DNA from: the human T2T-CHM13v2.0 reference genome, Homo sapiens
DNA length: 64,000 nucleotides
Reading direction: 5' to 3'
Assembly: GCA_009914755.4 (NCBI GenBank)
Contig: CP086569.2
Coordinates: forward strand, 15,680,001 to 15,744,000
The position numbers and the translations under genes were made by a program. Under the pieces are notes generated by a model. The model worked only from the letters and a program-made list of their open reading frames with translations. It did not search any database and was not told where the DNA came from. Positions 10,830 through 62,426 of this stretch are shown here, one piece after another; the stretch's first letter is position 1; each line of letters begins with the position of its first letter.

Positions 10830-11790
<961 letters not shown>

Positions 11791-12111
11791 CACTACATGT
11801 ATGGACAGTTTTCTTGGGTTTCACCTCAGAAAACACTGCTAAAATTCAAGATAAAATTACTTTGATTACATGGGTTAATAATAGCTCTCTGTGTGTGTCT
11901 TAGTCCCCTCTCTGTTTCCTATGTGTATTACTTGATTTCTAAATAAACTGTAGAAGCTCCAAGTACTTATTTGAATCTCTACATACAATGGTGCCATGTT
12001 ATCTAATTTTTCCTTTAGGATGTGTACAAAGACTGTACAAAATATTTGAATTGTGTAATGGTATCCAGTATGGATAATAAAGGATAAGTAAATTTTTGAG
12101 AAGTCAGTTAA

Positions 12112-12414
12112 GTCCGGGCGCGGTGGCTCACGCCTGTAATCCCAGCAGTTTGGGAGGCCAAGCGAGCGAATCACGAGGTCAGGAGATCGAGACCATTCTG
12201 GCTAACACGGTGAAACCCCGTCTCTACTAAAAATACAAAACATTAGCCGGGCGCTGTGGCGGCTGCCTGTAGTCCCAGCTACTCAGGAGGCTGAAGCAGG
12301 AGAATGGCGTGAACCTGGGAGGCGGAGCTTGTAGTGAGCTGAGATCGCACCGCTGCTCTCCAGCCTGGGCGACAGAGCGAGACTCCGTCTCAAAAAAAAA
12401 AAAAAAAAAAAAAA
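12112..12414 (+). mobile_element. AluY with a pure 24-nt poly-A tail; a short L1 3' fragment follows at about 12420..12545
   Basis: gtccgggcgcggtggctcacgcctgtaatcccagcagtttgggaggccaagcgagcgaatcacgaggtcaggagatcgagacc ... gactccgtctc followed by A24. A short direct repeat aagtca flanks it. Confidence 0.9.
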
Positions 12415-13499
12415 GTCAAAAAATAACAGATGCTGGTGAGGTTGCAAAGAAAAGAGAACACTTACACAATATCGGAGAGAGTGTAAATTAAATCAATCAT
12501 TGTGGAAAGCAGTATAGTGACTCCTCAAAGAGCTAAAAACGGAACCAAAAAGAAAAAAAGAAAAAAAAGAAAAGTCAGTTGAAATGTAATAGATACATAG
12601 ATGTCTAATTTTTCAGTTCTGAACTATGGACATTTTTGCAAAGATACATGCTTTTCACTTCAGGAGGTATTTGTCAAGGTCTGGAAAAAATTTTGGCTGC
12701 CACAGCTAGATTATGGGAGTGAGTACCACTCGCATTTCAAGGCCAGAGGCCAGAGATACTGTTAAGCCACCCACAAGGCATAGGATAGCCCAGCACATTA
12801 AATAATCTTCCATCTACACATGTCAATATTCCTGAGGTTGAGAAACCCAGATCTAGAGTAATATTGATGAGCAGTAAGTATAGGCCGAAGCCTCGTTTTC
12901 CATATGGCTGTGATAGATTTTTTAAAATAGTCATTGGAAGAAATAAACCCTCGGTTCTATGGAAGTCATAAGGAATATTCTGCCTGTGTGCTTGTACAAC
13001 CTTGGCTTGGAGCAGCGGTGGATATAATGCAAGTGGCTTTGCAGAATCACGGGGTTTTCTACAGGTCATTTCATCACCCAGGTATTAAGCTGAGTACTCA
13101 TTAGTTATTTTTCCTGATACTCTCCCTGCTCCCACCTTCCACCCTCAAGGAGGTCTCAGTGTGTGTTACTCTCCTCTATGTGTCGTTGTGTTCTCGTCCT
13201 TTAGCTCCCACTTATAAGTAAAGACATTCAGTATTTGCTCCAGATAGTTGCTGGAGGCTATTATCCTTACAATCTTCTATATTAATTACAATGGGGCATC
13301 TCCTGAATTTCAGAGGAATACTTGTTTCCTGATTCCTGATGTATATACTATCAGCATATACATAAATACATAAATACATGGCTGTGAAATCACATAAAGC
13401 CTTTACTTCCATACTTGACTTCCTGCAGAACCTCCACATTTCTTATGAGCTTCCATTTTTCTTTCTTCTTGGCATTTATCATTACTTAATGAGAGGTTT

Positions 13500-21803: not shown

Positions 21804-22942
21804 CAGACAGAAGTCTTCTAATGTTTTATCATTATGTATAATATTTGGAGTAGGATATAAATGAACTATCTTTTTCACATAAATAAATGTTTATCTCCTT
21901 AATTTGATAACATGAAACCATAAATTCATTAGAGGTAATTTTTTTTTCATCTTTTAATATTTTCCTTGCTTTGTGTTTAATTTGTTCATGTAGTAAATTA
22001 AATAAGTTAACTTTCTAATATCAAGCTTAGTTTGATATTCAGTATACTCTTTAATATCATTTTTGTATTTGTTATATATTAATCATTTTTGTATCTCTGT
22101 ACTAAATTGGATAGGCTGTAATTTTCCTTATGTTAGGCTTCTCTGGTTTTAGCCTCAACTTAATAGTAGCTGTGTAGAAATAGTAAGAAAACATTTCTGC
22201 TCTCTGGGAGAGTTCATATAAAAAATTCCTTAATTAATAGGTGGTAGACTTGCTATTCAGTCCACCCTGGACAGATGATGTCTTTGATGTAGTTAAAAAC
22301 ATCTTTTATTTCCTGCTTGATTTGTGGGCTTTATTACGTATTGATTTCTTATATATATTAATAACAACATGTTTGCCTGTATCTGTCTGTTAACACTTTA
22401 TTATGTTCTCTTTTTTCATTTGTCTGTTGTCTGTATACATTTTGTTAAACTATTGTAACAAATTATGAGAAATGTAGTAATGTAAAAGAGCAACCATGTA
22501 GTATGTCATGGTTCTAAAGGTCAGAATTCTTGGTGCAGTGGAGCCTAGCTTGGTCCTCTTCTTAAGGTCTTCCATGGGTGAAATCAAGAGACTGGCAGGG
22601 CTGTATTCCTCTCTGGGGGCTGGAGGGATGAATCTGTTACAACATGTAGATTTTTAAAATCTAAGTATTTGCACTAACTTCTGATTTTACCATATTAGAT
22701 CCATAGGGTGAATTCCTATTTCTTGATCATTTGAGTCTTAGAGAAGCTTGATTTCCGTCCTACAACATCGTTAGATTATTACAGATTTCTTATCTGCTTT
22801 AAACAAGGGGTTTTTCTCTGTTTTTTGTCAAGATTAACATAATATTTTCAACATGTATTATACTTGAGTTGTATATTGTGAGTATATAAGTACACACAAT
22901 GAACGACTCTTCAGCCTTAAAAAAGGAGTAAATAAGAAATAG

Positions 22943-23224
22943 GCCGGACGCGGTGGCTCACGCCTGTAATCCCAGCACTTTGGGAGGCCGAGGCGGGCGG
23001 ATCACGAGGTCAGGAGATCGAGACCATCCTGGCTAACACAGTGAAACCCCGTGTCTACTAAAAATACAAAAAAATTAGCCGGGTGAGGTGGCGGGCGCCT
23101 GTAGTCCCAGGTACGCGGGAGGCTGAGGCAGGAGAATGGCGTGAACCCCAGAGGGCGGAGCTTGCAGCGAGCCGTGATGGCGCCACTGCGAGGCTCCATC
23201 TAAAAAAAAAAAAAAAAAAAAAAA
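22943..23224 (+). mobile_element. AluY, + orientation, 3' body slightly truncated, tail of 24 or more A
   Basis: ggccggacgcggtggctcacgcctgtaatcccagcactttgggaggccgaggcgggcggatcacgaggtcaggagatcgagaccatcctggctaacac is read directly. Confidence 0.9.
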
Positions 23225-23875
23225 GAAAGAAATCATGTAATTGGTGACAACACAGATGTACCTGAAGGACATTATGTGAAGTGAAATGAGCCAGGCACAT
23301 AAAAACAAACACTGCATGATGAAATGTGAAATCTAAAGAAGTCAAACTCACAGAAACAGAGAGTAGACTTGTAGTTGCTATAGGCTGGAAGTTGTGCACA
23401 TGGCGAATTTTGGTCAAAGAGCATAAACAGTTTTTTCCTTCCTATAATATTATTTTCTTAGGTTCTAATTTTTGAGCTATTGGGATTTTCACATCATAAT
23501 TTTTTGGTCTTACTTATGCTTGCATATCTTTTACTACTCTTGAATAATTTTAGTCTTTCTATATCTTTTGGCTTAAAATTTGTCTCAAATTGGTTGCATT
23601 TTTCATCTTTGGTTTTGTTACAAACGTGTGATTGTCTGGAATTTTTAATTTATGAGTTCAAAACATTTATGTTTGTTGAATATTAATTTTACTAAGGCTT
23701 AGTTTGCCATCTTGTTTGACATGTTCAATTTAGTTACTTCAGAATAAGCATAATATAACTGTATATTTTGTCTTTGAAAACATCAGTTTCCACCTGTCAT
23801 TTAATAGATATACTTCTACTGGATTTAAAACTATATTCTGTTTTTTGTTCTTACACTGTTGTTGATCATAACTGA

Positions 23876-29129: not shown

Positions 29130-29945
29130 ATTTCTAACATATATAGAGATAATATGTAAGATCACATTATATATAAAGTCACATAGAGTAAGTATAATAT
29201 ATAATCATATATAATTATAAAAAATTACATATAAAAGTATATTATATATCATACTTATATATTCATATTATATAAATATATAATATATATTAATTATCTA
29301 TAATTTTAAATATAAATTATATATGTAATTATATATTATACATTATATTATATATAAAATATATTTCATATTATGGAAATATATTTTATATATTACATAT
29401 TATATATAATATATAAAATTGTATATTATATAAAAATATATATCATATATAAAATATAATGTATAATTATATATACTTCATTATATAATATGAAATTATT
29501 ATATGTAATACACACTATATATGGTATATAATATATAACATAATTTAAATATAAATTTTATATAATATATAATTTTATAGAATACATTATATACTATAAG
29601 TATATAATTATTTTACATATAATATATTATATATAAAATATAATATAATATGTATTGTATATATTTATATAATATTTTATATATAGAACATAATATAAAT
29701 TTGTATATGATGTATATCATATAGTATATGTAATTATTATATCTAGTTTATGCTATATTGTATGTAATTATATATAAAATATAATTTTAAATATAAACTC
29801 TATATGATATAATTTATATATTATAATATATGATTAGATAATATATAATAAGTATATATACTTAATATATGTGATCTTGTTAAGTATAATACATATATTA
29901 TATATAATATATATTATATGTATATAAAATATATTAAACTTACCA
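29130..29945. repeat. About 800 bp of AT-rich simple repeat (TATATA / ATATTATATA / ATAATATAT variants)
   Basis: The sequence is almost exclusively A and T, built from reiterated tatata, attatata and aatatata units, some palindromic. Confidence 0.9.
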
Positions 29946-40553: not shown

Positions 40554-42318
40554 AGTGAAAGGTCCTGTCACATGAAATTTACCTACATAATAAACCTATA
40601 GTTGTACCCCCAAACCTAAAATAAAAGGTTTTTAAAGGCCAATTTTAGTTTCTAGTGATTGGGGAAGTTGCAGATCTTGTCACCTATGGAATTGTGTCTG
40701 GAGTTTGTTCCTTCTGGTGGGTTCATGGTCTCACTGACTTCAGGAACCAAGTTTCCACTCGACCCAGGAAGTCCACCTGGCTTCACATACCAATAGAAGG
40801 TGTCTCCTCTAAACTGGACACCCCAAATGCTATTGGGAATTGGGTGATGACCGCTCTACCTACTTCCTGATGGATAGGGGCAAAGAAGTGGCCCTGCAGT
40901 TGTAATGTCCTTCAGAGGGGAACTCTCTAGCCCAGTCTTGGAGCCACAAGGTCGATTCAGGGGTCCTCAGTAGAAGTTGTGAGTTGAGCTCATTTGGGGT
41001 TCCATTTGTAAGACCATCTGTAGCTTGATGGCCTCGATCCTGGAGGAAACAAATTTGACAAGGAGATTAAAAATACAGGGCCCAAATGCAAGTAATAGCA
41101 AGATGGCTGTCACAGGACCTAGAAAGGGGAGAAGCCATGTCACTCAACTTCAGATGTTGGTATAAGAGTTTGAGAGGCATTGTCTGATTTCACAAGTCTT
41201 TTCCTGTAAACACTGGATGGCATCTCATATTATCCCTGACTGGTTAATATAAAAACAACACTCTTCCCCTAAGAAGGTGCAGAGTCCTCCTTTCTCAGCA
41301 GTGAGGAGGTCTAGGCCTCAGTAGTTTTGGAGAGTCACTGCTGCCAAAGAGTCTACTTGGGATTGCAGTGTAAGGAAAGATTTTGTTATTTCTTGAAAAC
41401 TGTCTGAGAAATACTTTTAGAGTGTGTGATAGGTAGTAGGATAATGGAGTAGATAAACTGGCTATTCTGTTTCCTGTATCAGTGGCCATTCCTAAAACTA
41501 TAAGTAGGGTTATTAGTTGCATGGCCCTGCACTGACGAACTTGAACTTTAAGGGGCACTGATAGGGTCTGATTTCCTGGGGAAATGTCAGTGTTGGGACT
41601 TAGGAAGACTAAGTTCCAGGTGCCTGTCCAGGTGGGGAGGCAGACGTAGGTTCAAGTTCCACATAAGAAGAACATGCCTTGGCTGAGTAGACAGAACTGG
41701 TTGTATATGTTAAAAAGGCTTGTGATAATAATAATAACTCATATTATTTTCATTTTCCCATACTCCTAGAGTACTTGCCAAGGTACCTCCAGAGAATAGC
41801 TGAAAAGGAGTGTTGGGAGAAAACTGAGTGGCTCCCTGTGTTCTATTTTCCCATTGGAGAAAAAACCGTTTTGTATCTACTAGGAACCATTCAAGACAGT
41901 GATAGAAAGAGGGAATGAGAAGGCTTTCATTAGTGGTGGGGATGCTGCTGCAAGGGGTCCAGGGATGAATGGTCATGCAGGGAGAATGTTTGCCATTACA
42001 ACACCCAGACTGTTAAGCAGGTAGGAGGTGATAATTTTTGGAGGCCCTGAGAAGCAGACAAGCCATCTGAATGGAGCTGTATGGGTGACTCACAAGTTGC
42101 TATGATCTGTTGGTGGTTGAAGTTGTAGAGTATTATTACACTGATGGCATTGTAGGTTTCCAGGGGCAGGCCTGATAACAGATTGCACTGGATGCATAAA
42201 GAGGCTTGAAAAGTTAAGATGGTATTCGTGGTTACAGGGCCATATATGGGCTTTTCATTGCTAGTGTAATAGGTGAAAGTGGAAATGTAAGAGTGTAAAA
42301 GCTGGATTCCATGTCCTG

Positions 42319-42591
42319 TTAGGGTATTCTTGGTAAGCTTTGTGATAACCCAAATCTAGGAATTATTTCATGAATTAGGACTTTAACCACTTCCTGAGCA
42401 TTCTCTGTCTTGCAGGGGAAGGCTTCTATCAAATTTCTAAAGATATCAGCACAGACCAACAAGTATTGAAATCCCTTTAACTTAGGCATAGGCATGAACT
42501 CTAAATACCAGTCCTGCCCAGGATAGTGCCCTATTCTTTCTTCTCCCAGAGGGGCCTTATGATAGACCATGGGGTTTTTTCTTTGGCACAC
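42319..42591 (-). pseudogene. Retroviral integrase catalytic-core remnant (pol), degenerate
   Basis: The ORF reads GQDWYLEFMPMPKLKGFQYLLVCADIFRNLIEAFPCKTENAQEVVKVLIHEIIPRFGLSQSLP. This aligns to the gammaretroviral integrase core motif W.IDFTE...KYLLV.VDTFSGW.EAFPTKKETA..V.K.LL.EI.PRFG.P. The first catalytic Asp is replaced, giving LEF for IDF. Confidence 0.8.
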
Positions 42592-43418
42592 ATCACAGGC
42601 TTTGACTACTTGTCAGATGATCTAGAGGAGACATGTCCTTGTAAATAGGGATTTGGCTATTTGATGAGTGTTCTCAATACACATATGGAGAGTTTGGTGG
42701 AGGCTTTTAAGTATTTTCCACTGGCTGGCTTCAGGTATGAGTACCTTTCCCTTTTCTGTCATTAACCACCCCTAGCATAGAAAACTATACCCCCGTGAAA
42801 TTTTCCATTCTGTTTCATTTGGGGAATACTGGGGCTTAATCTCTTGGAGAGGGTTGTTCCATACCAAGGGTCCTTCCACAGGTACTTCTAATGGGAGGTT
42901 CCGCCTGGTAGCAATTTTGGCCTCAGAGTCTGCCTGACAGTTTCTACCTTTTCTCCTTCATCTTTTTAATGGCTTTGGCAGCACAAGACTGCCACCCCCT
43001 TGGTTTTTGCACTGTGTGCAATAACTCCATGATTTCCTTGTGGCATTTAATGGGGGTTCCCCCAGAAGTTAGGAACTCCCTTTTTCTTCATATTGTAGCA
43101 TTGGCTTGTAGGGTTAGATAAGCATAGTTTCTACCTATATACACATTTATTATTTTTGCTTTTCCCATTTCTAAGGCTCGGGTAAGCACCAGTAGTTCTG
43201 CTAACTGGGTGCTGATCCCTGGGTGAAGAGGGTTACTTTTCAAATACTGTTACATCACTATGGCATAACCTGCCCCTTCATCTCCCATTCTCCACAAACG
43301 AACTTCCATCGTTCTATAGGTTAAGGTCAGGATTAGCTAAGGGGACTTCTTAGAGATCCTCTTGGGTGACACAGTCTGGGCTACAATTTGTTGGCAGTCA
43401 TGCTAGATCGGTCCCATG

Positions 43419-43631
43419 CTATGGGAGAAAAGTCGCAGGGTTGAGGGCTGCACATGTGCATACTTGAAGCAAAGTCTCAAGGAGTAGCACCTGGTATCTA
43501 AGCAGGTGGTTATCTGATAGCCATAAACTTCCTTTGGCACCTAGTGTGCCATTTACATCATGAGTAGTCCAGACAGTGAGATCCTTTCCTTGTATTATTT
43601 TGATAGCCTCTGACACTAAGATGGCCACCAC
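43419..43631 (-). pseudogene. pol RNase H / connection-region remnant
   Basis: The ORF ends ...VCTCAALNPATFLP, matching the gammaretroviral pol motif ALNPATLLP at the start of the RNase H region. Confidence 0.55.
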
Positions 43632-44215
43632 TGCAACTACCCGTTAACAGTGAGGCCAGCCTTTTGCTACTACATAAATTTCCTTACTTAGGTATGCTGC
43701 TGGTTGTGGGGACACTTAGTGCGTCTGAATAAGGACTCCAAGAGCTATTTCCACTCTTTCTGTGATGTATAAAAATAATTTTTTTCATGTACGAAGGCTT
43801 AAGGCTACAGCTTGTACTAGGGCCTGCTTTAAGGTTTTGAAAACTGTTTCTGCCTCTGGTTTCCATTCCACTAGATGAGTATTTGCCCTCTGGGTGTCCT
43901 TGATTAAAGTATAGAGTGGCCTGGCCATCTCGCCGTATCCAGGGATCCATAGTTGGCAAAACTGGTGATCCCAAGGAACGTCTGCAACTGTTTAAATTTC
44001 TTAGGGCAAAGGATAAGCCAGTATGGGCTGCATTTATTCTTTGCTGAGGGTTCCTCTGGTTAAAATTAGGCCTGGATATTTGAATTGTTGTAGGCAGAGC
44101 TGGCCTTCAATTAGATGCCTTTTACCATTGATTAGCTAGAAACTTCAAGAGATCTATAGTAGACTGCTGGCATGTGGCTTCCAAACTGGTAGCGAAAAGT
44201 AAATCATCCACATTC

Positions 44216-44503
44216 TCAAGGACCAGTGTACCTGGACTTGAGAAGTGACCTAGATCTGGGATAGCACCTGACCAAACAGATGAGGGCTATCCCTAAATGC
44301 TTGAGGTAAGACCGTCCATGTAAGTTGGGATGTGTGGTCTGTGGGATCCTCAAAGGTAAAGAGAAACTAGGAGTTAGAGTGCAGGGGAATGGAGAAGAAG
44401 GCATCCTTGAGGTCCAGAACAGTGAACAATTCTTTTTCCTCTGTTGAGAGTGTAGAGGTATAGGTCTTGGGTGCACCTGGATATAGATGAATTTCTGCCT
44501 CAT
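44216..44503 (-). pseudogene. pol reverse-transcriptase N-terminal remnant
   Basis: The ORF contains IPLHSQQRKKNCSLFW, which resembles the gamma-RT motif (C/S)(L/I)(R/P)LHP.SQ.LFAFEW. Confidence 0.45.
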
Positions 44504-47500
44504 TGATGAATCTAAGATCTTGCACTAGTCTCCACTAACAATTCGGTTTTTGTACTCCTAGAATTGGAGTGTTGTAGAGACTGCTGCATTTTCTTGCTAA
44601 GCCTTGAGATTTTAGATGTCTAACAATATCCTATAATTGTTTATGAGCTTCAGACCTTAAGGGATATTGCCTTTGATAAGGAAAATTGGTGGGGTCTTTC
44701 AGCCTGATTTGGACAGGGCCAACATTTTTTGCCCTTCCGAACTGTCCTTACAATGCCCAGACTCCAGGGTTGATTCCCTCCTCAAGCAGTGGACAACAGA
44801 TAAGTGACTTGTTCCCCATATTCATATGGATAATAGCTCCAGCTTTGGCTAATATGTCCCTTCCTAATAAGGGTGTGGGACTTTGAGGCATAACAAGAAA
44901 GGCATGTGAAAAGAGCAAAGTCTCCCAATTACAACTGAGGAGCTGGGAGAAATGCCTGGTTACAGGCTGCCCCAGGATTCCTCAGATGGTAATGGACCTT
45001 CAGAGCAGCCATCTGTGGCAGGATATTAACACTGAGAAGGCCACATCCATGTCCAGAAGGAAGTCAATGTCCTGGTCCTCAATGGTTAAATGTACCTGGG
45101 GCTCAGTGAGGGGGACAAAATGAGCTGGTGCTTTCCACAGGCACCCTCAGTCCTGCTGTTGGATCACCTGGTTGGGGACTGCTGGTCCTGAGAACCTTTG
45201 TCCTCTGGGGCAGTGTGCTTTCCAGTGATGACCTTGGCATAGTGGACATGGCCAAGGGGGTGACTTGTTTCTCACTGGACAATCTTTTCTAAGGTGTCCT
45301 TGAAAACCACACTAATAACAACCCCTACCAGGTAATTGGTCTGATCCATTTTCTGTCCTCTCTGAAGCACCAAGGTTTGTTTGACTGAGGGCCATGACTG
45401 TGGCCTTTCACTGATCTCCCTTTTCCTTTTGGGCCTGTTCCTCTTGGTCTCTATTATAGAACACCAAATTTGCCAGGTTTAATAATGCCTCCAGATTTTG
45501 TTCGGGGCCAGGGCTCACTTTTGGAGCTTTATCCTGATATCTGCAGCTGATTGGATATGTGTTAGGATCAATTGACCCTCGAGGGAGTTGGTTGACAGGG
45601 GAATATATTTTCTTAAGGCCTCTTGTAGCTGCTCAAGGAAGGCAGTAGGATTATTTTCCTTTCCCTGAGTTATGGTGGACATCATTGATTAATTCATGGG
45701 CTTTTTCCTATTCTCCTTAGTCCTTCTAGAACACAGGTCAACAGATGTTTGTGACTCCAGTCCCCACGATCTGAGTCTAGATCCCAGTGGGGATCCATAT
45801 GGGTTACAGCTTGCTGACCAGTAGGGAATTTGTCCCTTTCTTCGGCTGTTATTCTATCATTTACTTAACTAAAATACCAGATCTCCAAACACTCAGGCTG
45901 TAGCTAAAGCCACTTTATTTTCACTAAAGGCCAGGGTTTGATCTAACAATAGCATGATATCTTTCCAAGTGAAGTCAAATATTTGCCCTGGACCCTGTAG
46001 GACATCTATATACCTATTCAGGACTATCTGAAAACATCCCCAGGTCTACCTTATCTGCTTTAAATTGGAGAGGGAGAAGGGGACATGTACCTAGGTTCAG
46101 TCAAATTCCCCTCCCCTGACAGCTTGAAGGGGACATAAGCCATAGCCTGGGGGTGTTTGTGGTCCCTTGGATATTTCTTTGCTTGTTCCCCTTCTGGGTG
46201 GGGGAGACTAGAGGAGGCTTATTACTGATAGGAAAGGGAGCTGTATAGATGGTAGGATATGAAGCTAAACTGAGAGGTCCTCCTGTGGAATGTAAATTTC
46301 AAGCTTTGCCTTGTTGTGGATTATCCTTCAATGAAAAGAAAGCTTAGACATAAGATATTTCACTCAATTTGCCTTCTCTCTTACAGGTCAAAGGACAGTA
46401 TGGCATTCTAATTTATACTTCCCTCAGGTGGTCATTTTTCCCATCAGAGAGAGAATATTGAGGCCAGGCCATAGTGCAGAAAAAAAAATAAGCCACTTCT
46501 ATTTCAGTGTTTGCAGATCAAATTGTTCCCAATGGCTTAGGATGCATTTCAAGGGTGAGCTTGTTGATGCCTGAGTGATTCCCATCTAAAAGAAAAAAAC
46601 AAATGTGGTTTTGGTTTGCCTTTTTTCCTTGCCCAAGATCCTGCAACAGTCCCTGGACCCTGATGTTCCGAATAGTTGTGCTCGCCAAAGCAGCAGCAGA
46701 AACACTAGTTTTCCTCCTAGATCATAAGGAGGACCAATAAATGTCGGATTTAGTAGCCCTTACCAACACATTCTTGAAAATCAACACCCTTGCCTTTCCT
46801 CTTAGACCACAAAGAGGACTGAGAAAAATCAGATTTAGTGGCCCTTAGTGATGCATCCTTAAAAATCTGTAAGAGTCCTAAGCATTCTCCTCTTAGTATT
46901 GGGACCTTATCCTTGTCCTATAAAGATGATATGCATCAAAATGGAGTGGAGGGCCATACCCTTAGGGAGGGAAGGGATCTCCAGGGTTGGAAGAGTGACA
47001 CCTTTTGTCCTCACTTCTCATCAATGAAAAGGAAGGATATAATTTCTGAGGCTCCCCTTATCCTAGCTTCAGGAATAGCCTTTGTTAGGCCTGCTAGTCT
47101 GAGGAGGGTTGATAAATTCCAGATCATCCCCCTCCCAACAAAGCTTCAGGTGAAAACTATGTTTTTCTGATAGGGGAGCCTGGGTACCTAAAGAAGGAAC
47201 AGAGTCCCACAGTTTATACCATAAATCATTTATAGGAGAAACTAGAAGATCACCAGGGACAGGGAGTTGTTTTTAGACACAGGGCTACCTTCAGAGAAGA
47301 GAGGCAGTAGGAAAGGTTGTCTTACAGGCGTTAGGACCCAGAAGGCAAGGGTCACGATAGATAGGATAGATGGGCGAGTCTCGCTTGTGCAACATAACTT
47401 TGAAAGTTATGCTCATGGCTGCAGGGTCAACCAACTTTTTGTTGGGACCCTGGAGCTGAATGACTTTCCTCTCTGTCAACCCTTGGCTCAGCCAAGAAAT

Positions 47501-47777
47501 GCAGGAAAAATGGAAGCTGGTTCCAGGCAAATCAATGCTCCCAACTCCAAAGATTCAGTGGTTGTTAGAGAGCCCTTTCCCAGAAAGCCTGACACCTGAG
47601 TCTTTAGTCCAGCAGCCACGCTAGTTGCTTTTAACTGGTCAACAGGTGCCTGGTATTTAGTCCCCGAATTCTAAAGAAAAATAGGACAGAATAGCAAGTG
47701 AAAAGGGTCCAGCGGTACTCACCACATGGCAATATCCTGGATGAGCCACTAGATGTGTCCAGAGTTGGTTCCTGCCA

Positions 47778-48332
47778 GTGGGTTCGTGGTCTTGCTGACT
47801 TCATGAATGAAGCTGCTGACCTTCACTGTGAGTGTTACAGATCTTAAAGGTGGCATGGACTCAAAGAGTGAGCAGCAGCAAGATTTACTGTGAAGAGTGA
47901 AAGAACAAAGCTTCCACAGAATGGAAGAGGACCCTAGTGGGTTGCCACTGCTGGCTGAGTTGGCCAACTTTTATTTTCTTATTTGTCCCATCCCATGTTG
48001 TCTGTCTGTCCTATCAGAATGCCCTTTTTACAATCCTCCTTGTGATTAACTACTTTTAGGTTATTATAGAGTGCAGATTTGTGCATTTTACAGAGTGCTG
48101 ATTGGTGCATTTTACAATCCTCTTGCTAGCTACAGAGTGCTGATTGGTGTTTTTACAGAGCACTGATTGTTGCATTTTACAATCCCCTTACTAACTACAG
48201 AGCGCTGATTGGTGCATTTTACAATCCTCGCTAAAGAGTGCTTATTGGTGTGCTTTACAATTCTCTTGTAAGACTGAAAAGTTCTCCAAGTCCCCACTCG
48301 ACCCAGGATGTCCACCTAGGTTCACCTTTCAG
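47778..48332 (-). mobile_element. 5' LTR of the ERV9-like provirus, LTR12-like, about 555 bp, with U3 tandem repeats
   Basis: See the provirus entry. The sense strand reads U3 (CCAAT repeats) ... aataagaaaataaaag ... R with poly-A signal agtaaa then cttgctgctgctcactctttgagtcc ... U5 gtaacactcacagtgaaggtcagcagcttcattcatgaagtcagcaagaccacgaacccac. Confidence 0.75.
48065..48265 (-). promoter_or_regulatory. U3 enhancer-type tandem repeats (4-5 units of about 40 bp) each carrying a CCAAT box, which is ATTGG on the + strand
   Basis: agagtgctgattggtgcattttacaatcctcttgctagctac / agagtgctgattggtgtttttac / agagcactgattgttgcattttacaatccccttactaactac / agagcgctgattggtgcattttacaatcctcgctaa / agagtgcttattggtgtgctttacaattctcttg. 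CCAAT-containing U3 repeats are characteristic of ERV9 LTRs and bind NF-Y. Confidence 0.7.
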
Positions 48333-50189
48333 ATAATGTTTGGTAATTATTTAACTAAGCCAACATCTTAGCAGAATTCAGGCATCTGTCATTTTTCTAA
48401 CCTGCTGGTCTTTCATTAGTTTTACAAAGGTTGTTTAGTTTTAAGAAGGGCTATTATCATTTAAACTATAAGTTCAATTTCTCCCAAAGTTAGCTTGGCC
48501 TATGCTCAGCAATGATCATTGTAGTATGGTGGTGAAAGACAAGATGGTGTTGGTTAGGTCAGATCTCTTTCACTGTCATAATTTTCTCACAGTTACAAGT
48601 TTTGCAAAGGTGGTTTCAAGATGAAAGGAGTATACTCTTGTAAAGAGCGTAAAATTATTTCAGTCATTCTGTACCTGAAACAGGCACTCCCCCTTTTTGA
48701 TAGTTTAAATTTAAAAAGAAAATTAATAATCCCTGGATGTTGCAGTAAATGAAAATTCCAATGCAGAAACTGTGAAAACACATGCTTCAAAACACCACAT
48801 TCTTTTGTTAAACTTCAGAGATGCAAGCATTGCCATTTCCCTTGGCAAGCTTACAGAATATTTGGAGGAAATTCTGAACCTCAAAGATCAATCCATCCAG
48901 TAGGATGCTGTTTGAATAACTAAGATTTTTGAACACAAGGGACATTCATTAGCCTGCTATTGGAAAGGTTACAAAAACCCTTGTTTTGTAAGGGAGGAAG
49001 GGATTGTGGTGGAAGAAAGGCCAGTGATTCACAGCATGTTGAAAATCTTCACGATCCTCTGCAGAAACAAAATAAGCCAACAGATCATTCTGCAGAATTG
49101 TGAAAGAGAGAACAGTGAGTTAAGAAAAGATGTGCTGAAGACAGAATCATTCTGTTAGAAAATTACTCGTGCCTTAAAAATTAATTACCTCTCTCTTTAA
49201 TAGGGGACGAAAGCATTGCCCTGTGGTATTAGAGGGCACCCACACTGACATTATTCATCATTGTCATATGTACCCTGAATGAAAGGATTTCTTCTCCCAG
49301 GCAAAGCCTGATGCTCTTTATGAACAAACCGTGTCAAAGATTTAGTGATGGAGACTGGTGTTGCAGAACATTTTTGGCATAAAGCACTAATTAGTAATCA
49401 CTAATTAAATGGTGGGGGGCTTGCGTAATGTCTGAACATACCCACTAATCACAGCTAATCTCACATCAAGTTTCTCTGAACTTTAAAGAAATCACATTGG
49501 TAGGATGTGTCTTAAGTAAGACCAACCTCACAGTTGCAATACTGCCTCTCCTTGAAGCTGCAGGCAATGGTGACTCCTGATTTAGGCTTGGAATTTATTG
49601 TCATTGTAGGAAAAAAAAAATCTTATGACTTTCTTTGAAGCCTGGCCATTTCCTCCTTTCCAGCTCAGAGCATTTTTCCAATTGTTCACGAAACCTAATG
49701 GAAGAAAATCTGGTTAACTCTACTGGTATGCAGCCTCATCCTCTACTCTTTTTGTTTTAAAAGTAGAAGCCAACACTCAGTCTCTCATTGGAATGCTGTC
49801 AACTTTGGTTAGGAATATGCTTTGAAGTAGTTGGTTTGGATTTATGTTATTTTAGGGCTTAAAGCAGTCTGTCATCATACAAACAAGCCCCTCCCTTATG
49901 TGACACTGTTGTTCATAAAAGGCATCAGACTTTGCTCGGGAGAAATGCTCAACTAAGGACAGGAAAATGGTAAAAAACAACAACGCAAGAAACCTTCCCC
50001 AAATACTCAACTATAATATTTGTTCCTTACATACAATTTCTTTTTTTGAAGATCTACGTCATTAACTCATTTGAAGGGACATTTAGTACGTAATTTATCA
50101 TAGGAGTCTGTTGTGTTTAAAGAAAAATGTGCACACAAATGGTACCTTGAACCTCGTAAAATTTACAATGACTTCTGGGATTGCTTCAT

Positions 50190-50703: not shown

Positions 50704-51000
<297 letters not shown>

Positions 51001-56174: not shown

Positions 56175-57254
<1,080 letters not shown>

Positions 57255-61830: not shown

Positions 61831-62426
61831 AGGAAGGGAGGATGAAGGGACTGAAGGAAGGAGAGTTGTGATGAAGGAAAGAAGGGAAGGAGGGAGGAAG
61901 GAGGGAGGAGGGGTGGGAGGGAAAGAAGAGAGAGAGAGGAAGGGAGGGAAAGAAGGAAGGAAGAAGGAAGGGAGGGAATCAAGAAAGGAGTAAAGGAAGG
62001 GAGGAAGTAAGGAAAGAAAGAGGGAAGAGGGAGAAGAGAAATGAAAGATGTAAGAAGGGAAGGAAGGTGAAAGGAAGGAAGGGAGGAAGGAAGGGAGGAA
62101 GGAAGGAAGAAAAGAAGGAAGCAAAGAAAAGAAAGTGAGAGAAAAGAAAGAGAGGAAGGGAGGAGGAAGAAAGAAGAGAGGAAGGAAGGAAAGAGAGATT
62201 AGGGAGAGAGGCAAGGATAAAAATGGATGGAGACAAAAAAGAAGGAAGGGAGAGAGGAAGGAAGGAAGAGAGGGAGAAAAAAGAGGGAATGGAGGAGGAG
62301 AGGAAGAAAGGATTGAGGGAAGGGAGGGATGGGTAAGGGAAAGAAGAAAAACAGGGAAAGGGAGGGTGAGAGATAAAAGAGGGAAGGGAGTAGGGGAGGA
62401 AGGAAAGAAGGAGGGAGGGAGGGACA
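61831..62426 (+). repeat. About 600-bp polypurine GGAA/GGGA/GAAA-rich tract; it is purine-rich in the sense pre-mRNA
   Basis: The + strand is almost exclusively A and G (ggaagggaggatgaagggactgaaggaaggagag...ggaaggaagggaggaaggaaggaagaaaagaaggaagc...gggaggaaggaaagaaggagggagggaggg). The artefactual ORFs 61819..62427 on the minus strand and 62135..62503 on the + strand encode low-complexity peptides. Confidence 0.9.

What the first reader, a model, noticed from the sequence alone, without database searches (positions are those of the whole stretch)
40669..48332. ERV9-like provirus antisense in a neuroligin intron, with an LTR12-type 5' LTR carrying a CCAAT-box tandem array and a 3' LTR reduced to a U5-U3 junction
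Retroviral pol remnants on the minus strand identify a gamma-like ERV internal region. They are an integrase core (WYLEF...KGFQYLLVCADIF...EAFPCKTE...IIPRFG), an RNase H LNPATFLP motif and an RT IPLHSQQ...LFW motif. The high-coordinate end has an LTR whose U3 contains 4-5 tandem units of about 40 bp, each with an ATTGG (CCAAT) box. This is the signature of ERV9/LTR12 enhancers, which bind NF-Y and act as long-range, tissue-specific promoters and enhancers. The low-coordinate LTR is reduced to about 120 bp. A U5 piece (ctggagtttgttccttctggtgggttcatggtctcactgacttcagg) is fused directly to the first 40 bp or so of U3 (ccaagtttccactcgacccaggaagtccacctggcttcac). R and nearly all of U3 are deleted. 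The intact 5' LTR points antisense to NLGN4, so any LTR12-driven transcript would be antisense to the host gene.
Basis: partly seen in the sequence, partly recalled or inferred. Interest (0 to 1): 0.6.

Follow-up and report, generated by a model that had tools for sequence, protein, structure and literature searches.

The report
Decayed HERV9 provirus in NLGN4Y intron
This is an ordinary, long-dead endogenous retrovirus of the ERV9/HERV9 family (LTR12-type LTR) lying backwards in an intron of the Y-linked neuroligin gene; it is already listed in a published catalogue of human retroviral fossils, and nothing here shows that it does anything.

Summary
Window 40693-48331 (minus strand) is a 7.6-kb class I provirus: 5' LTR, PBS, leader, gag, pro, pol, env and a 3' LTR remnant. 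All reading frames are broken.

Published HERV9 consensus sequences (Vargiu 2016) fit better than the HERV-W ones:
- Env C-terminus: 85% identity over 170 aa, against 52% for HERV-W.
- Pol: 66% against 55%.
- R-U5 of the LTR: 84% identity to the HERV9 LTR.

The U3 carries six CCAAT-type boxes in a 65-bp composite repeat, and four of them are intact. The 3' LTR is a 100-bp internally deleted LTR made of the first 46 nt of U3 and the last 54 nt of U5.

The locus matches HERV9 chain 5123 (chrY:16.93 Mb, hg19) in that catalogue through its unusual zinc finger, CY*CGFQGHLRKDC. The flanking plus-strand exons are 100% identical to human NLGN4Y.

- The PBS is Pro-like, not Arg/Trp.
- No target-site duplication is detectable.
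- The "IPLHSQQ" motif is an out-of-frame string.
- The 5' LTR is complete in length but decayed: four CpGs, no GATA sites, and a mutated poly(A) signal.

The LTRs differ by 12-18%, which suggests roughly 30-50 My. Function is untested and is most likely none. The element is already known and of low interest.

The parts
40693..40792 (-). 3' LTR remnant (100 bp). In sense orientation it is the first 46 nt of U3 (40747-40792) joined to the last 54 nt of U5 (40693-40746). A 478-bp internal deletion removes most of U3, all of R and part of U5.
   Evidence: Direct-repeat families D4 and D7; global alignment to the 5' LTR; boundary refined with L059; 18/100 mismatches to the 5' LTR.
40802..40813 (-). 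Degenerate polypurine-tract-like stretch (TTTAGAGGAGAC) upstream of the 3' LTR. An indel of about 7 nt relative to relative L059 separates it from the U3 start.
   Evidence: Sequence; alignment with the L059 3' LTR junction, TTTAGAGGGGACAG|TGAGAG; coordinates.
40862..42346 (-). env remnant of HERV9 type (part of SU plus TM), spread over three frames. The TM domain is at 41048-41434. The immunosuppressive domain [22 protein letters not shown] is at 41264-41332, with an in-frame TGA at 41318-41320.
   Evidence: Pfam TLV_coat, E=1e-35. tblastn with published consensus sequences: HERV9_b C-terminus 84.7% over 170 aa, HERV9_a 75-81%, HERV-W 52%. The ISD string, including the stop, matches HERV9_a/b. 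The closest solved structures are syncytin-2 and syncytin-1.
42334..44996 (-). pol remnant, with frameshifts and many stops. RT is at 44250-44456, with VLDLKDAFFSIPLHS at 44376-44420 and YVDD changed to NVDD at 44197-44214. The RT-RNase H connection is at 43575-43865, LNPATFLP at 43422-43445, the integrase zinc domain at 42571-42738 and the integrase core ORF at 42319-42591.
   Evidence: Pfam; ORFs; tblastn with HERV9 Pol consensus 65.7% over 636 aa against HERV-W Pol 54.7% over 569 aa; primate ERV Pol homologues at 63-76%.
44829..45104 (-). Retroviral aspartyl protease remnant.
   Evidence: Pfam RVP, E=3.5e-4.
45279..46585 (-). gag remnant. The start, MGITQAST, begins at 46585. p30 capsid is at 45518-45715. 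The NC zinc finger CY*CGFQGHLRKDC is at 45279-45320, followed by a second, modified finger.
   Evidence: Pfam Gag_p30 and zf-CCHC; HERV9 gag consensus tblastn; zinc-finger string identical to Vargiu chain 5123.
46586..47733 (-). Long 5' leader or 'pre-gag' region, with an 85-bp tandem duplication at 46710-46867.
   Evidence: The N-terminal pre-gag part of the HERV9 gag putein aligns at 47318-47437 (72.5%) and 46302-47024; repeat family D2. A long pre-gag region is a general feature of gamma-like HERVs (PMC6995185).
47734..47751 (-). Decayed primer-binding site, TAGTGGCTCATCCAGGAT. It is tRNA-Pro-like, with CpG-to-CpA decay of ...GCTCGTCCGGGAT.
   Evidence: Relative L059 has TGGGGGCTCCTCTGGGAT at the same position. 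The PBS table of Vargiu et al. types ...GCTCATCCAGGAT motifs as P (AGG). HERV9 chains with a Pro PBS are listed, for example chain 5983.
47754..48331 (-). 5' LTR (578 bp), a short LTR12-type LTR. U5 ends at 47754. Features: HDE-like 15-mer at 47831-47845; poly(A)-signal position CAGTAAATCTTGC at 47878-47890 (AATAAA changed to AGTAAA); AATAAAAG box at 47968-47975; single GTGGGGA at 48291-48297. There is only one U5 unit and no 5' extension.
   Evidence: blastn to the published HERV9 consensus LTR: 84% over 179 nt and 84% over the terminal 94 nt; U3 units 70-94%. HDE-like motif. Alignment with the L059 LTR. CpG observed/expected 0.147. Motif coordinates.
48065..48268 (-). U3 tandem array: six CCAAT-type boxes with 23/24- and 42-nt spacing (65-bp composite period). 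Intact CCAAT at 48101-48105, 48143-48147, 48208-48212 and 48244-48248. Decayed boxes at about 48078 and 48166. A further decayed box (TTAAT) lies just downstream in sense.
   Evidence: the repeat finder family D1/D3; TRF; pattern search; L059 keeps CCAAT where the window has TTAAT.
50773..50964 (+). Host exon (context): neuroligin-4 residues ~208-271.
   Evidence: tblastn.
56292..57083 (+). Host exon (context): neuroligin-4 residues ~271-534. It is 100% identical to the protein that NCBI names 'neuroligin 4, Y-linked [Homo sapiens]' over their overlap.
   Evidence: tblastn; protein search and sequences.

Best explanation
This is a fossil provirus of the ERV9/HERV9 group (class I, gamma-like, HERVW9 supergroup). 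It integrated into the primate germ line tens of millions of years ago, in antisense orientation in the intron upstream of the exon encoding residues ~208-271 of NLGN4, most probably the human Y gametolog NLGN4Y.

Shown:
- The layout is 5' LTR, PBS, leader, gag, pro, pol, env, 3' LTR.
- Its LTR is a short LTR12-type LTR. It has a CCAAT-box array, one U5 unit and no 5' extension, and is most like what the literature calls LTR12F.
- All genes are destroyed by stops and frameshifts.
- CpGs have been almost completely lost.
- The 3' LTR has suffered a 478-bp internal deletion.

Inferred:
- The element is now a neutral passenger.
- It persists because antisense intronic ERVs interfere least with host splicing and polyadenylation.
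- At most, its four surviving CCAAT boxes could bind NF-Y in otherwise closed chromatin.
For: - Domain order on the minus strand.
- Published HERV9 consensus sequences fit better than HERV-W. Env is 75-85% against 52% and covers SU as well as TM. Pol is 65.7% against 54.7%.
- The ISD string [22 protein letters not shown] is the HERV9_a/b type, including the in-frame stop.
- The LTR is 84% identical to the HERV9 consensus LTR over R-U5, and the U3 repeats align with the consensus CCAAT units.
- The LTR12-enriched HDE-like 15-mer is present once in the window, in the right place and strand (PMC11417402).
- The two LTR copies align at both ends.
- The NC zinc finger 'cyzcgfqghlrkdc' occurs once in the stored part of Vargiu et al.'s table, in HERV9 chain 5123, chrY:16927676-16931568 (hg19), minus strand. 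Its gag/pro/pol spacing fits the window.
- The host exons are 100% identical to human NLGN4Y.
- Decay: 73-93 stops per frame across the coding part; the longest minus-strand ORF is 96 aa; CpG observed/expected is 0.12-0.15.
- Age: LTR-LTR divergence is 18% raw and 12% without CpG-related sites. This lies inside the 9-31% range reported for the HERVW9 supergroup.
- Antisense bias of intronic ERVs: PMC1794541 (abstract).
- Most NF-Y-bound LTR12 copies lie in repressed or unmarked chromatin: PMC12065363.
Against: - The PBS is Pro-like, not the Arg/Trp typical of HERV9. It is, however, a documented minority type ('p') in HERV9 chains.
- No target-site duplication is recognisable: TTATC upstream against ATTCC downstream.
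- RepeatMasker/Dfam could not be run, so the LTR12 subfamily (F?) rests on length (~500 bp for LTR12F) and on analogy.
- RetroTector itself did not call LTRs, PBS or env for chain 5123.
- Lack of function is an inference from decay, not a measurement.
- The match to the chrY catalogue entry rests on a 14-residue string plus consistent spacing and the NLGN4Y exons. It does not rest on a DNA alignment to the assembly.
Confidence: 0.9

Rival explanations
1. It is not HERV9 proper. It would be one of the 'HERV-W-like' mosaic elements that carry LTR12F LTRs around an internal region which RepeatMasker labels HERV17/HERV30 (cluster II of Grandi et al. 2018). On this reading it is an early W/9/30 intermediate or recombinant lineage.
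For: - Grandi et al. describe such loci (LTR12F + HERV17/HERV30), most of them shared from human to rhesus, including one on chrY.
- The LTR here is short (578 bp) and lacks the extensions of canonical LTR12C/D/E.
- The PBS is atypical.
- Identity to the HERV9 consensus is only moderate: Pol 66%, LTR 84%.
- The closest full relative found (L059) is itself only 80-86% identical.
Against: - Env and Pol are each clearly nearer the HERV9 than the HERV-W consensus.
- The ISD signature is HERV9_a/b, not HERV-W or HERV30.
- Vargiu et al. file the locus under HERV9, taxorder 10320.
- The distinction is largely one of nomenclature within one supergroup.
Confidence: 0.12
2. The 5' LTR is still a working NF-Y-dependent promoter or enhancer. 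It would produce an antisense transcript through the provirus into the NLGN4Y intron, or modulate NLGN4Y, as LTR12 copies do elsewhere.
For: - Four CCAAT boxes survive, three with the CACCAATCAG context, and the AATAAAAG box is retained.
- LTR12 elements are well-documented NF-Y-bound promoters and enhancers.
- With the 3' LTR lacking R, and the 5' poly(A) signal mutated, a transcript would read through.
- An antisense lncRNA gene, NLGN4Y-AS1, exists at this gene.
Against: - The LTR has lost nearly all CpGs (4 in 578 bp, observed/expected 0.15). This is the signature of long-term germline methylation.
- The GATA cores of the repeat units are gone and only one GTGGGGA remains.
- Promoter activity in the literature is concentrated in young LTR12C/D/E.
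- A truncated LTR12F studied experimentally had no promoter activity of its own.
- The CpG island associated with NLGN4Y-AS1 was fully methylated in LCLs. No CpG island overlaps the LTR; the only large CpG-dense block in the window is the host exon at 56.3-57.2 kb.
Confidence: 0.06
3. The two ends do not come from one integration. The element would be a recombinant between two related proviruses, or the 100-bp low-coordinate piece would be a leftover of another LTR. That would explain the missing target-site duplication and the high LTR divergence.
For: - No TSD.
- 18% LTR-LTR divergence over 100 sites is at the high end for ERV9.
- Recombinant HERV9 chains are common.
Against: - The remnant sits exactly where a 3' LTR should, directly after the env end and a PPT-like tract.
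- It begins and ends at the same LTR termini as the 5' copy.
- With CpG-related sites removed, divergence falls to 12%.
- A 4-5-bp TSD is easily lost at this age.
- The sample is only 100 sites.
Confidence: 0.08

Closest known systems
HERV9 / ERV9 proviruses with LTR12 LTRs (Repbase HERV9-int + LTR12; Vargiu et al. 2016 taxorder 10320)
   Same: - gag-pro-pol-env gamma-like layout.
- Env ISD LQN(C/H/Y)[18 protein letters not shown].
- Pol and Env nearest the HERV9 consensus.
- LTR with a U3 CCAAT repeat array, a conserved R-U5 and an HDE-like motif.
- Long pre-gag leader.
- The locus matches the row listed as HERV9 chain 5123 on chrY.
   Different: - The LTR is short: 578 bp, one U5 unit and no 5' extension, against 1-1.5 kb in LTR12C/D/E.
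- About 6-7 box units, at the low end of the 5-17 reported.
- GATA motifs are absent.
- The PBS is Pro-like instead of Arg/Trp.
- The copy is older and more diverged than the bulk of the family.
LTR12F-flanked 'HERV-W-like' / non-canonical HERV9 loci (Grandi et al. 2018, PMC5775608, cluster II)
   Same: - Short LTR12-type LTR.
- Interior belonging to the W/9/30 complex.
- Old: their loci are mostly shared with rhesus.
- One similar locus lies ~0.5 Mb away on chrY.
   Different: - This locus is not in their table.
- Its Env and Pol are nearer HERV9 than HERV-W.
- The LTR12F label could not be tested here.
HERV-W (HERV17/LTR17; source of syncytin-1)
   Same: - Same supergroup.
- The TM ectodomain and membrane anchor are recognisably similar (FGPCIFNLLVKFVSSRIEA.KLQM).
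- Syncytin structures are the nearest solved relatives.
   Different: - Env identity is only 52% and limited to TM; Pol is 55%.
- The ISD differs (LQNRRALDLLTAERGGTCLFLGE).
- The LTR is of LTR12 type, not LTR17.
[quoted passage not shown]
   Same: U3 tandem repeats carrying CCAAT boxes that are the NF-Y sites in that system.
   Different: - That LTR has 14 repeats of ~40 bp with GATA and GTGGGGA motifs, and has documented transcription and enhancer activity.
- This one has 4 intact CCAAT, no GATA core and one GTGGGGA, and is CpG-depleted.
- No activity data exist for it.

Membership tests
Class I (gamma-like) endogenous retrovirus provirus | LTR-gag-pro-pol-env-LTR order with gamma-type domains (Gag p30, TLV_coat TM with a CX6CC-type ISD region) | tested here: met
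   Pfam hits in order on the minus strand. The TM is nearest syncytin-1/2 and MLV-type TM structures. The LTR pair aligns.
HERV9 / ERV9 | Pol closer to HERV9 than to sister groups | tested here: met
   tblastn gives HERV9 Pol consensus 65.7% over 636 aa (694 bits) against HERV-W Pol 54.7% over 569 aa (530 bits).
HERV9 / ERV9 | Env of HERV9_a/b type (ISD lqn[c/h][19 protein letters not shown]) | tested here: met
   The window has [22 protein letters not shown] at 41264-41332, with the stop at the same position. HERV9_b C-terminus is 84.7% over 170 aa; HERV-W is 52%.
HERV9 / ERV9 | LTR12-type LTRs | tested here: met
   84% identity to the published HERV9 consensus LTR over 179 nt and over the terminal 94 nt; the CCAAT units align. 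The LTR12-enriched HDE-like 15-mer is present with 1 mismatch. No Dfam/RepeatMasker run was possible.
HERV9 / ERV9 | PBS for tRNA-Arg/Trp | tested here: not met
   The PBS region TAGTGGCTCATCCAGGAT is Pro-like, and relative L059 has TGGGGGCTCCTCTGGGAT. Vargiu et al. list 'p' as a minority PBS type in HERV9 and state that PBS type has weak taxonomic value. This does not exclude membership.
HERV9 / ERV9 | Listed as HERV9 in a genome-wide classification | tested here: met
   Chain 5123, taxorder 10320, chrY 16931568-16927676, zinc finger 'cyzcgfqghlrkdc'. This is the only occurrence of the string in the stored table and is identical to window 45279-45320.
LTR12 U3 enhancer (NF-Y/MZF1/GATA-2 type) | 5-17 tandem ~41-nt U3 repeats | tested here: inconclusive
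   There are four full 36-42-nt units plus two 23-24-nt half units (six boxes), with a 65-bp composite period. This is at or just below the lower bound quoted.
LTR12 U3 enhancer (NF-Y/MZF1/GATA-2 type) | CCAAT boxes in the repeats | tested here: met
   Four intact CCAAT, three of them as CACCAATCAG; two or three boxes are decayed.
LTR12 U3 enhancer (NF-Y/MZF1/GATA-2 type) | GATA motif (TCTGTATCTAGCT) and G-rich GTGGGGA motifs recurring in the repeats | tested here: not met
   The best GATA-motif match is TCTGTAGCTAGCA (2 mismatches, core lost), and no TATCT occurs in the LTR. GTGGGGA occurs once, outside the array.
LTR12 U3 enhancer (NF-Y/MZF1/GATA-2 type) | NF-Y occupancy, transcription start at the U3/R border, enhancer activity | not testable with these tools
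   No expression or ChIP data were available. CpG depletion argues for long-term methylation.
LTR12F subfamily | Best match to the LTR12F consensus; length ~500 bp | not testable with these tools
   The lengths of 578 bp (window) and ~450 bp (L059) fit the ~500 bp quoted for LTR12F. No LTR12F sequence was available to align.

The most novel reading that the evidence does not exclude
The provirus could be a Y-specific insertion, absent from the NLGN4X gametolog. No HERV9-class chain is listed on chrX at 5.8-6.2 Mb in the catalogue. Its surviving CCAAT cluster might then recruit NF-Y and drive or modulate male-specific antisense transcription inside NLGN4Y, contributing to the regulatory divergence between NLGN4Y and NLGN4X.
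Probability: 0.03. Interest if true: 0.45.

Novelty: already known. Interest (0 to 1): 0.08.

Why it matters
It matters little. Fossil HERV9 proviruses number in the hundreds, and their LTR12 LTRs in the thousands, in catarrhine genomes. This copy matches an entry already in a published catalogue of human endogenous retroviruses. Its antisense intronic position is the usual one for surviving ERVs.

The only points of modest interest are taxonomic. It belongs to an old HERV9 sub-lineage with a short LTR12 (probably LTR12F) and a tRNA-Pro-type PBS. It also carries the same in-frame stop in the Env immunosuppressive domain as the family consensus. Apart from those points, it could serve as a marker for dating X-Y divergence at NLGN4.

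Any regulatory effect on NLGN4Y would be interesting for sex-biased neurobiology, but nothing in the sequence points to one.

Tried and rejected
- PBS-Arg hypothesis. My first reading of the PBS as a decayed Arg site was dropped when relative L059 showed a near-perfect Pro PBS at the same position.
- Looking for printed LTR12 sequence by string search in papers. This gave only unrelated hits.
- Supplement of Hu et al. 2017, which holds an ERV-9 LTR sequence. It is not held as text.
- Scan of IMG/VR for the LTR12 HDE-like 15-mer. It returned 57 phage contigs with chance matches and none with LTR similarity.
- Names of protein homologues. The 176 Pol hits carry no family names, so they confirm only 'primate gamma-like ERV'.
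- Target-site duplication. None was found at either candidate boundary.
The flank's similarity to LTR12 U5 (AAGATCTGCAACTTC) is not significant: 26/500 shuffles reach it.
- Gametolog test. Contigs carrying NLGN4 exon 5 with 10 kb of upstream DNA (L060-L065) turned out to be non-primate, with 78-82% identity at exons only. An exact look-up of the integrase ORF found nothing. Only weak negative evidence remains from the HERV9 block of Vargiu's table, which has no chrX entry near 5.8 Mb.
- CpG-island check for an LTR-associated promoter. There is none at the LTR.
- Link to NLGN4Y-AS1. No paper connects it to an LTR.

Full report
**What is there.** The region was read on both strands. Translating the three minus-strand frames of 40600-48400 and scanning Pfam gave the following hits, in this order along the minus strand:
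- Gag_p30 (45518-45715)
- a CCHC zinc knuckle (about 45276-45326)
- retroviral protease (44829-45104)
- reverse transcriptase (44250-44456)
- the RT-RNase H connection domain (43575-43865)
- the integrase zinc-binding domain (42571-42738)
- the gamma-type envelope TM domain (41048-41434; E=1e-35)

The quoted 'IPLHSQQ...LFW' is not the RT motif. It is a chance string in a frame that is out of register with pol (44441-44464). The true RT box, VLDLKDAFFSIPLHS, lies at 44376-44420, and YVDD survives as NVDD at 44197-44214. No frame is open. There are 73-93 stop codons per frame across the coding part, and the longest minus-strand ORF is 96 aa.

**LTRs.** Two direct-repeat families tie the ends together: 40693-40751 with 47754-47812 (80%), and 40747-40786 with 48286-48325 (88%). 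A global alignment shows what the low-coordinate copy is in the element's own orientation. It is the beginning of U3 joined directly to the last ~54 nt of U5, with 478 bp deleted in between. A related provirus fetched from a public assembly (L059, see below) shows that the LTR starts 6 nt further out, at TGAGAG|GTGA. The 5' LTR is therefore 47754-48331 (578 bp) and the remnant is 40693-40792 (100 bp).

The 'U5-U3 junction' wording reflects only the plus-strand view. The remnant is an internally deleted LTR, not a circle-junction-like structure. No target-site duplication is recognisable: TTATC upstream against ATTCC downstream.

**U3 array.** Positions 48065-48268 hold six box-bearing units. 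Their spacing alternates between 23/24 and 42 nt, which TRF reads as a 65-bp composite unit of 2.4 copies. Four boxes have an intact CCAAT, three of them as CACCAATCAG. Two are decayed (CAACAATCAG and CACAAATCTG). A seventh position is TTAAT here but CCAAT in L059.

**Family assignment.** No repeat database was available, so I used published sequences.

(a) A review of LTR12 gives the defining anatomy (PMC11853044):
- U3 with 5-17 tandem ~41-nt repeats containing CCAAT (NF-Y), GATA (TCTGTATCTAGCT) and GTGGGGA motifs
- U5 with 72-bp repeats
- sizes from ~500 bp (LTR12F) to more than 1300 bp (LTR12E)

(b) A 15-mer, AAGAGCTGTAACACT, was reported as strongly enriched in LTR12: 55% of all genomic copies lie there (PMC11417402). 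It occurs exactly once in the 64-kb window, at 47831-47845 on the minus strand, in R/U5, with one mismatch.

(c) The supplements of Vargiu et al. 2016 (PMC4724089) print consensus sequences for HERV groups. Used as queries, they gave these results:

| Comparison | HERV9 consensus | HERV-W consensus |
|---|---|---|
| Env | aligns from residue 175 to the C-terminus (window 42346 to 40862); 75-81% for HERV9_a, 84.7% over 170 aa for HERV9_b | TM only, 52% |
| Pol | 65.7% over 636 aa | 54.7% over 569 aa |
| LTR (consensus 3' end) | 84% over 179 nt and 84% over the terminal 94 nt; consensus CCAAT units match the window's units at 70-94% | not compared |

The immunosuppressive-domain signature that those authors use to name Env subgroups is lqn[c/h][19 protein letters not shown] for HERV9_a/b, where z is a stop. 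The window reads [22 protein letters not shown], with TGA at that very position.

**The locus is already catalogued.** The nucleocapsid zinc finger here is unusual: CY*CGFQGHLRKDC, at 45279-45320. The same string, 'cyzcgfqghlrkdc', occurs once in the stored part of Vargiu et al.'s master table. It is in chain 5123, taxorder 10320 (HERV9), chromosome Y, 16931568-16927676 (hg19), minus strand. That entry places Gag at 16931876-16930276, Pro at 16930272-16930042 and Pol at 16930041-16926881. The spacing agrees with the window if window position x is roughly chrY 16,885,000 + x.

Two plus-strand exons lie at 50773-50964 and 56292-57083. They were first found with a neuroligin-4X sequence recalled from memory. 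They are 100% identical, over the overlap, to a database protein that NCBI names neuroligin 4, Y-linked [Homo sapiens]. This includes the Lys in ECLKNKNYK, where my recalled NLGN4X has Arg. RetroTector did not call the LTRs, PBS or env of this chain. The anatomy given here is thus somewhat more complete than the catalogue entry, but it adds nothing new in kind.

**Sub-lineage.** A search with a stitched RT-RNase H query found 176 unnamed primate-type ERV Pol fragments at up to ~76% identity. One of them lies on an 8-kb assembly contig, L059 (Logan, SRR15442701). That contig is collinear with the window element over LTR, leader, gag, pol and env at 80-86% nucleotide identity. Its 5' LTR is ~450 bp and is followed by TCT TGGGGGCTCCTCTGGGAT. 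This is two mismatches from the tRNA-Pro primer-binding site, TGGGGGCTCGTCCGGGAT, which I recall from knowledge of MLV.

The window has TAGTGGCTCATCCAGGAT at the same place (47734-47751), that is, the same site with CpG-to-CpA decay. Vargiu's PBS table types ...GCTCATCCAGGAT motifs as Pro. It also lists 'p' as a minority PBS in HERV9, for example chain 5983, whose GHLKKDC zinc finger resembles the one here. The same authors and Grandi et al. stress that PBS type is a weak taxonomic marker.

The following features fit what the literature calls LTR12F:
- the short LTR
- the single U5 unit
- the absence of the 5' extension typical of LTR12C/D/E

They also fit the old 'LTR12F + HERV17/HERV30' loci that Grandi et al. 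found shared from human to rhesus. I could not test the subfamily label.

**Age and state.** Over the 100 comparable sites the two LTR copies differ at 18 (K2P 0.21). Removing CpG-related sites gives 11 differences over 90 sites (K2P 0.13). At 0.2-0.23% per site per My per lineage, this gives roughly 30-50 My, with a wide error. That lies within the 9-31% LTR divergence reported for this supergroup and near the reported entry of ERV9 into primates.

The 5' LTR is decayed in several ways:
- It has only four CpGs (observed/expected 0.147), against 0.18 for the window as a whole.
- The GATA cores of the repeat units are lost, and only one GTGGGGA remains.
- The poly(A) signal is AGTAAA.
- No CpG island overlaps the element.

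**How it most likely works.** It most likely does nothing now.

Shown: this is a single decayed provirus with no coding capacity, in antisense orientation.

Inferred: it was tolerated because antisense intronic ERVs do not impose their splice and poly(A) signals on the host transcript. The antisense bias of intronic ERVs is documented (PMC1794541). It has also been methylated for most of its history.

Its four CCAAT boxes could still bind NF-Y. However, most NF-Y-bound LTR12 copies lie in repressed or unmarked chromatin, and promoter use is concentrated in the younger LTR12C/D/E. I put the chance that this LTR is a functional promoter or enhancer at about 6%. An antisense lncRNA gene, NLGN4Y-AS1, exists, but I found nothing tying it to this LTR.

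**Verdict.** The structural interpretation is supported. The functional suggestion is untested and unlikely. The element is a known member of a known family and is already in a published catalogue, so interest is low.

Noticed in passing
L059:865-1330 (Logan SRR15442701 contig): L059 is a provirus 80-86% identical to the window element over its whole length. It carries a ~450-bp LTR12-type LTR followed by a near-perfect tRNA-Pro primer-binding site (TGGGGGCTCCTCTGGGAT). Together with HERV9 chains typed 'P' in Vargiu's table, this points to a distinct Pro-PBS, short-LTR sub-lineage of HERV9.
   Followed up: partly
window 41318-41320 (minus strand): The in-frame TGA inside the Env immunosuppressive domain (LQNY*GLD) sits at the same codon as the stop ('z') in the published HERV9_a (101 members) and HERV9_b consensus sequences. 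The env gene may therefore already have been defective in the source copies that amplified, rather than having been hit independently here.
   Followed up: partly
window 46710-46867: There is an 85-bp tandem duplication (75% identity) in the pre-gag leader of the provirus.
   Followed up: no
window 50773-50964 and 56292-57083 (+): Two neuroligin-4 exons are 100% identical to the protein that NCBI names human NLGN4Y. They have Lys in ECLKNKNYK, where the recalled NLGN4X has Arg. The second exon is the only large CpG-dense block in the window.
   Followed up: partly
window 29193-29934: An AT-rich (TA)n / TATAATA-type microsatellite of about 740 bp lies here (GC 0.14 over 29-30 kb).
   Followed up: no
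window 61873-62313: A purine-rich (GAAG)n/(GGAA)n low-complexity tract lies here. It accounts for the strong GC and AT skew at 61-63 kb.
   Followed up: no
window 10900-11350, 12050-12450, 22850-23250: Three 300-450-bp CpG-dense, GC-rich patches (observed/expected 0.8-0.95) lie in otherwise CpG-poor intron. Their size and density suggest young Alu-type SINEs, but they were not examined.
   Followed up: no
Vargiu et al. 2016 Table S1, HERV9 block (hg19): No HERV9-class chain is listed on chrX between 5.8 and 6.2 Mb, where NLGN4X lies by my memory of its coordinates. The chrY copy is listed. This is weak negative evidence that the insertion may be absent from, or undetectable in, the X gametolog.
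   Followed up: partly
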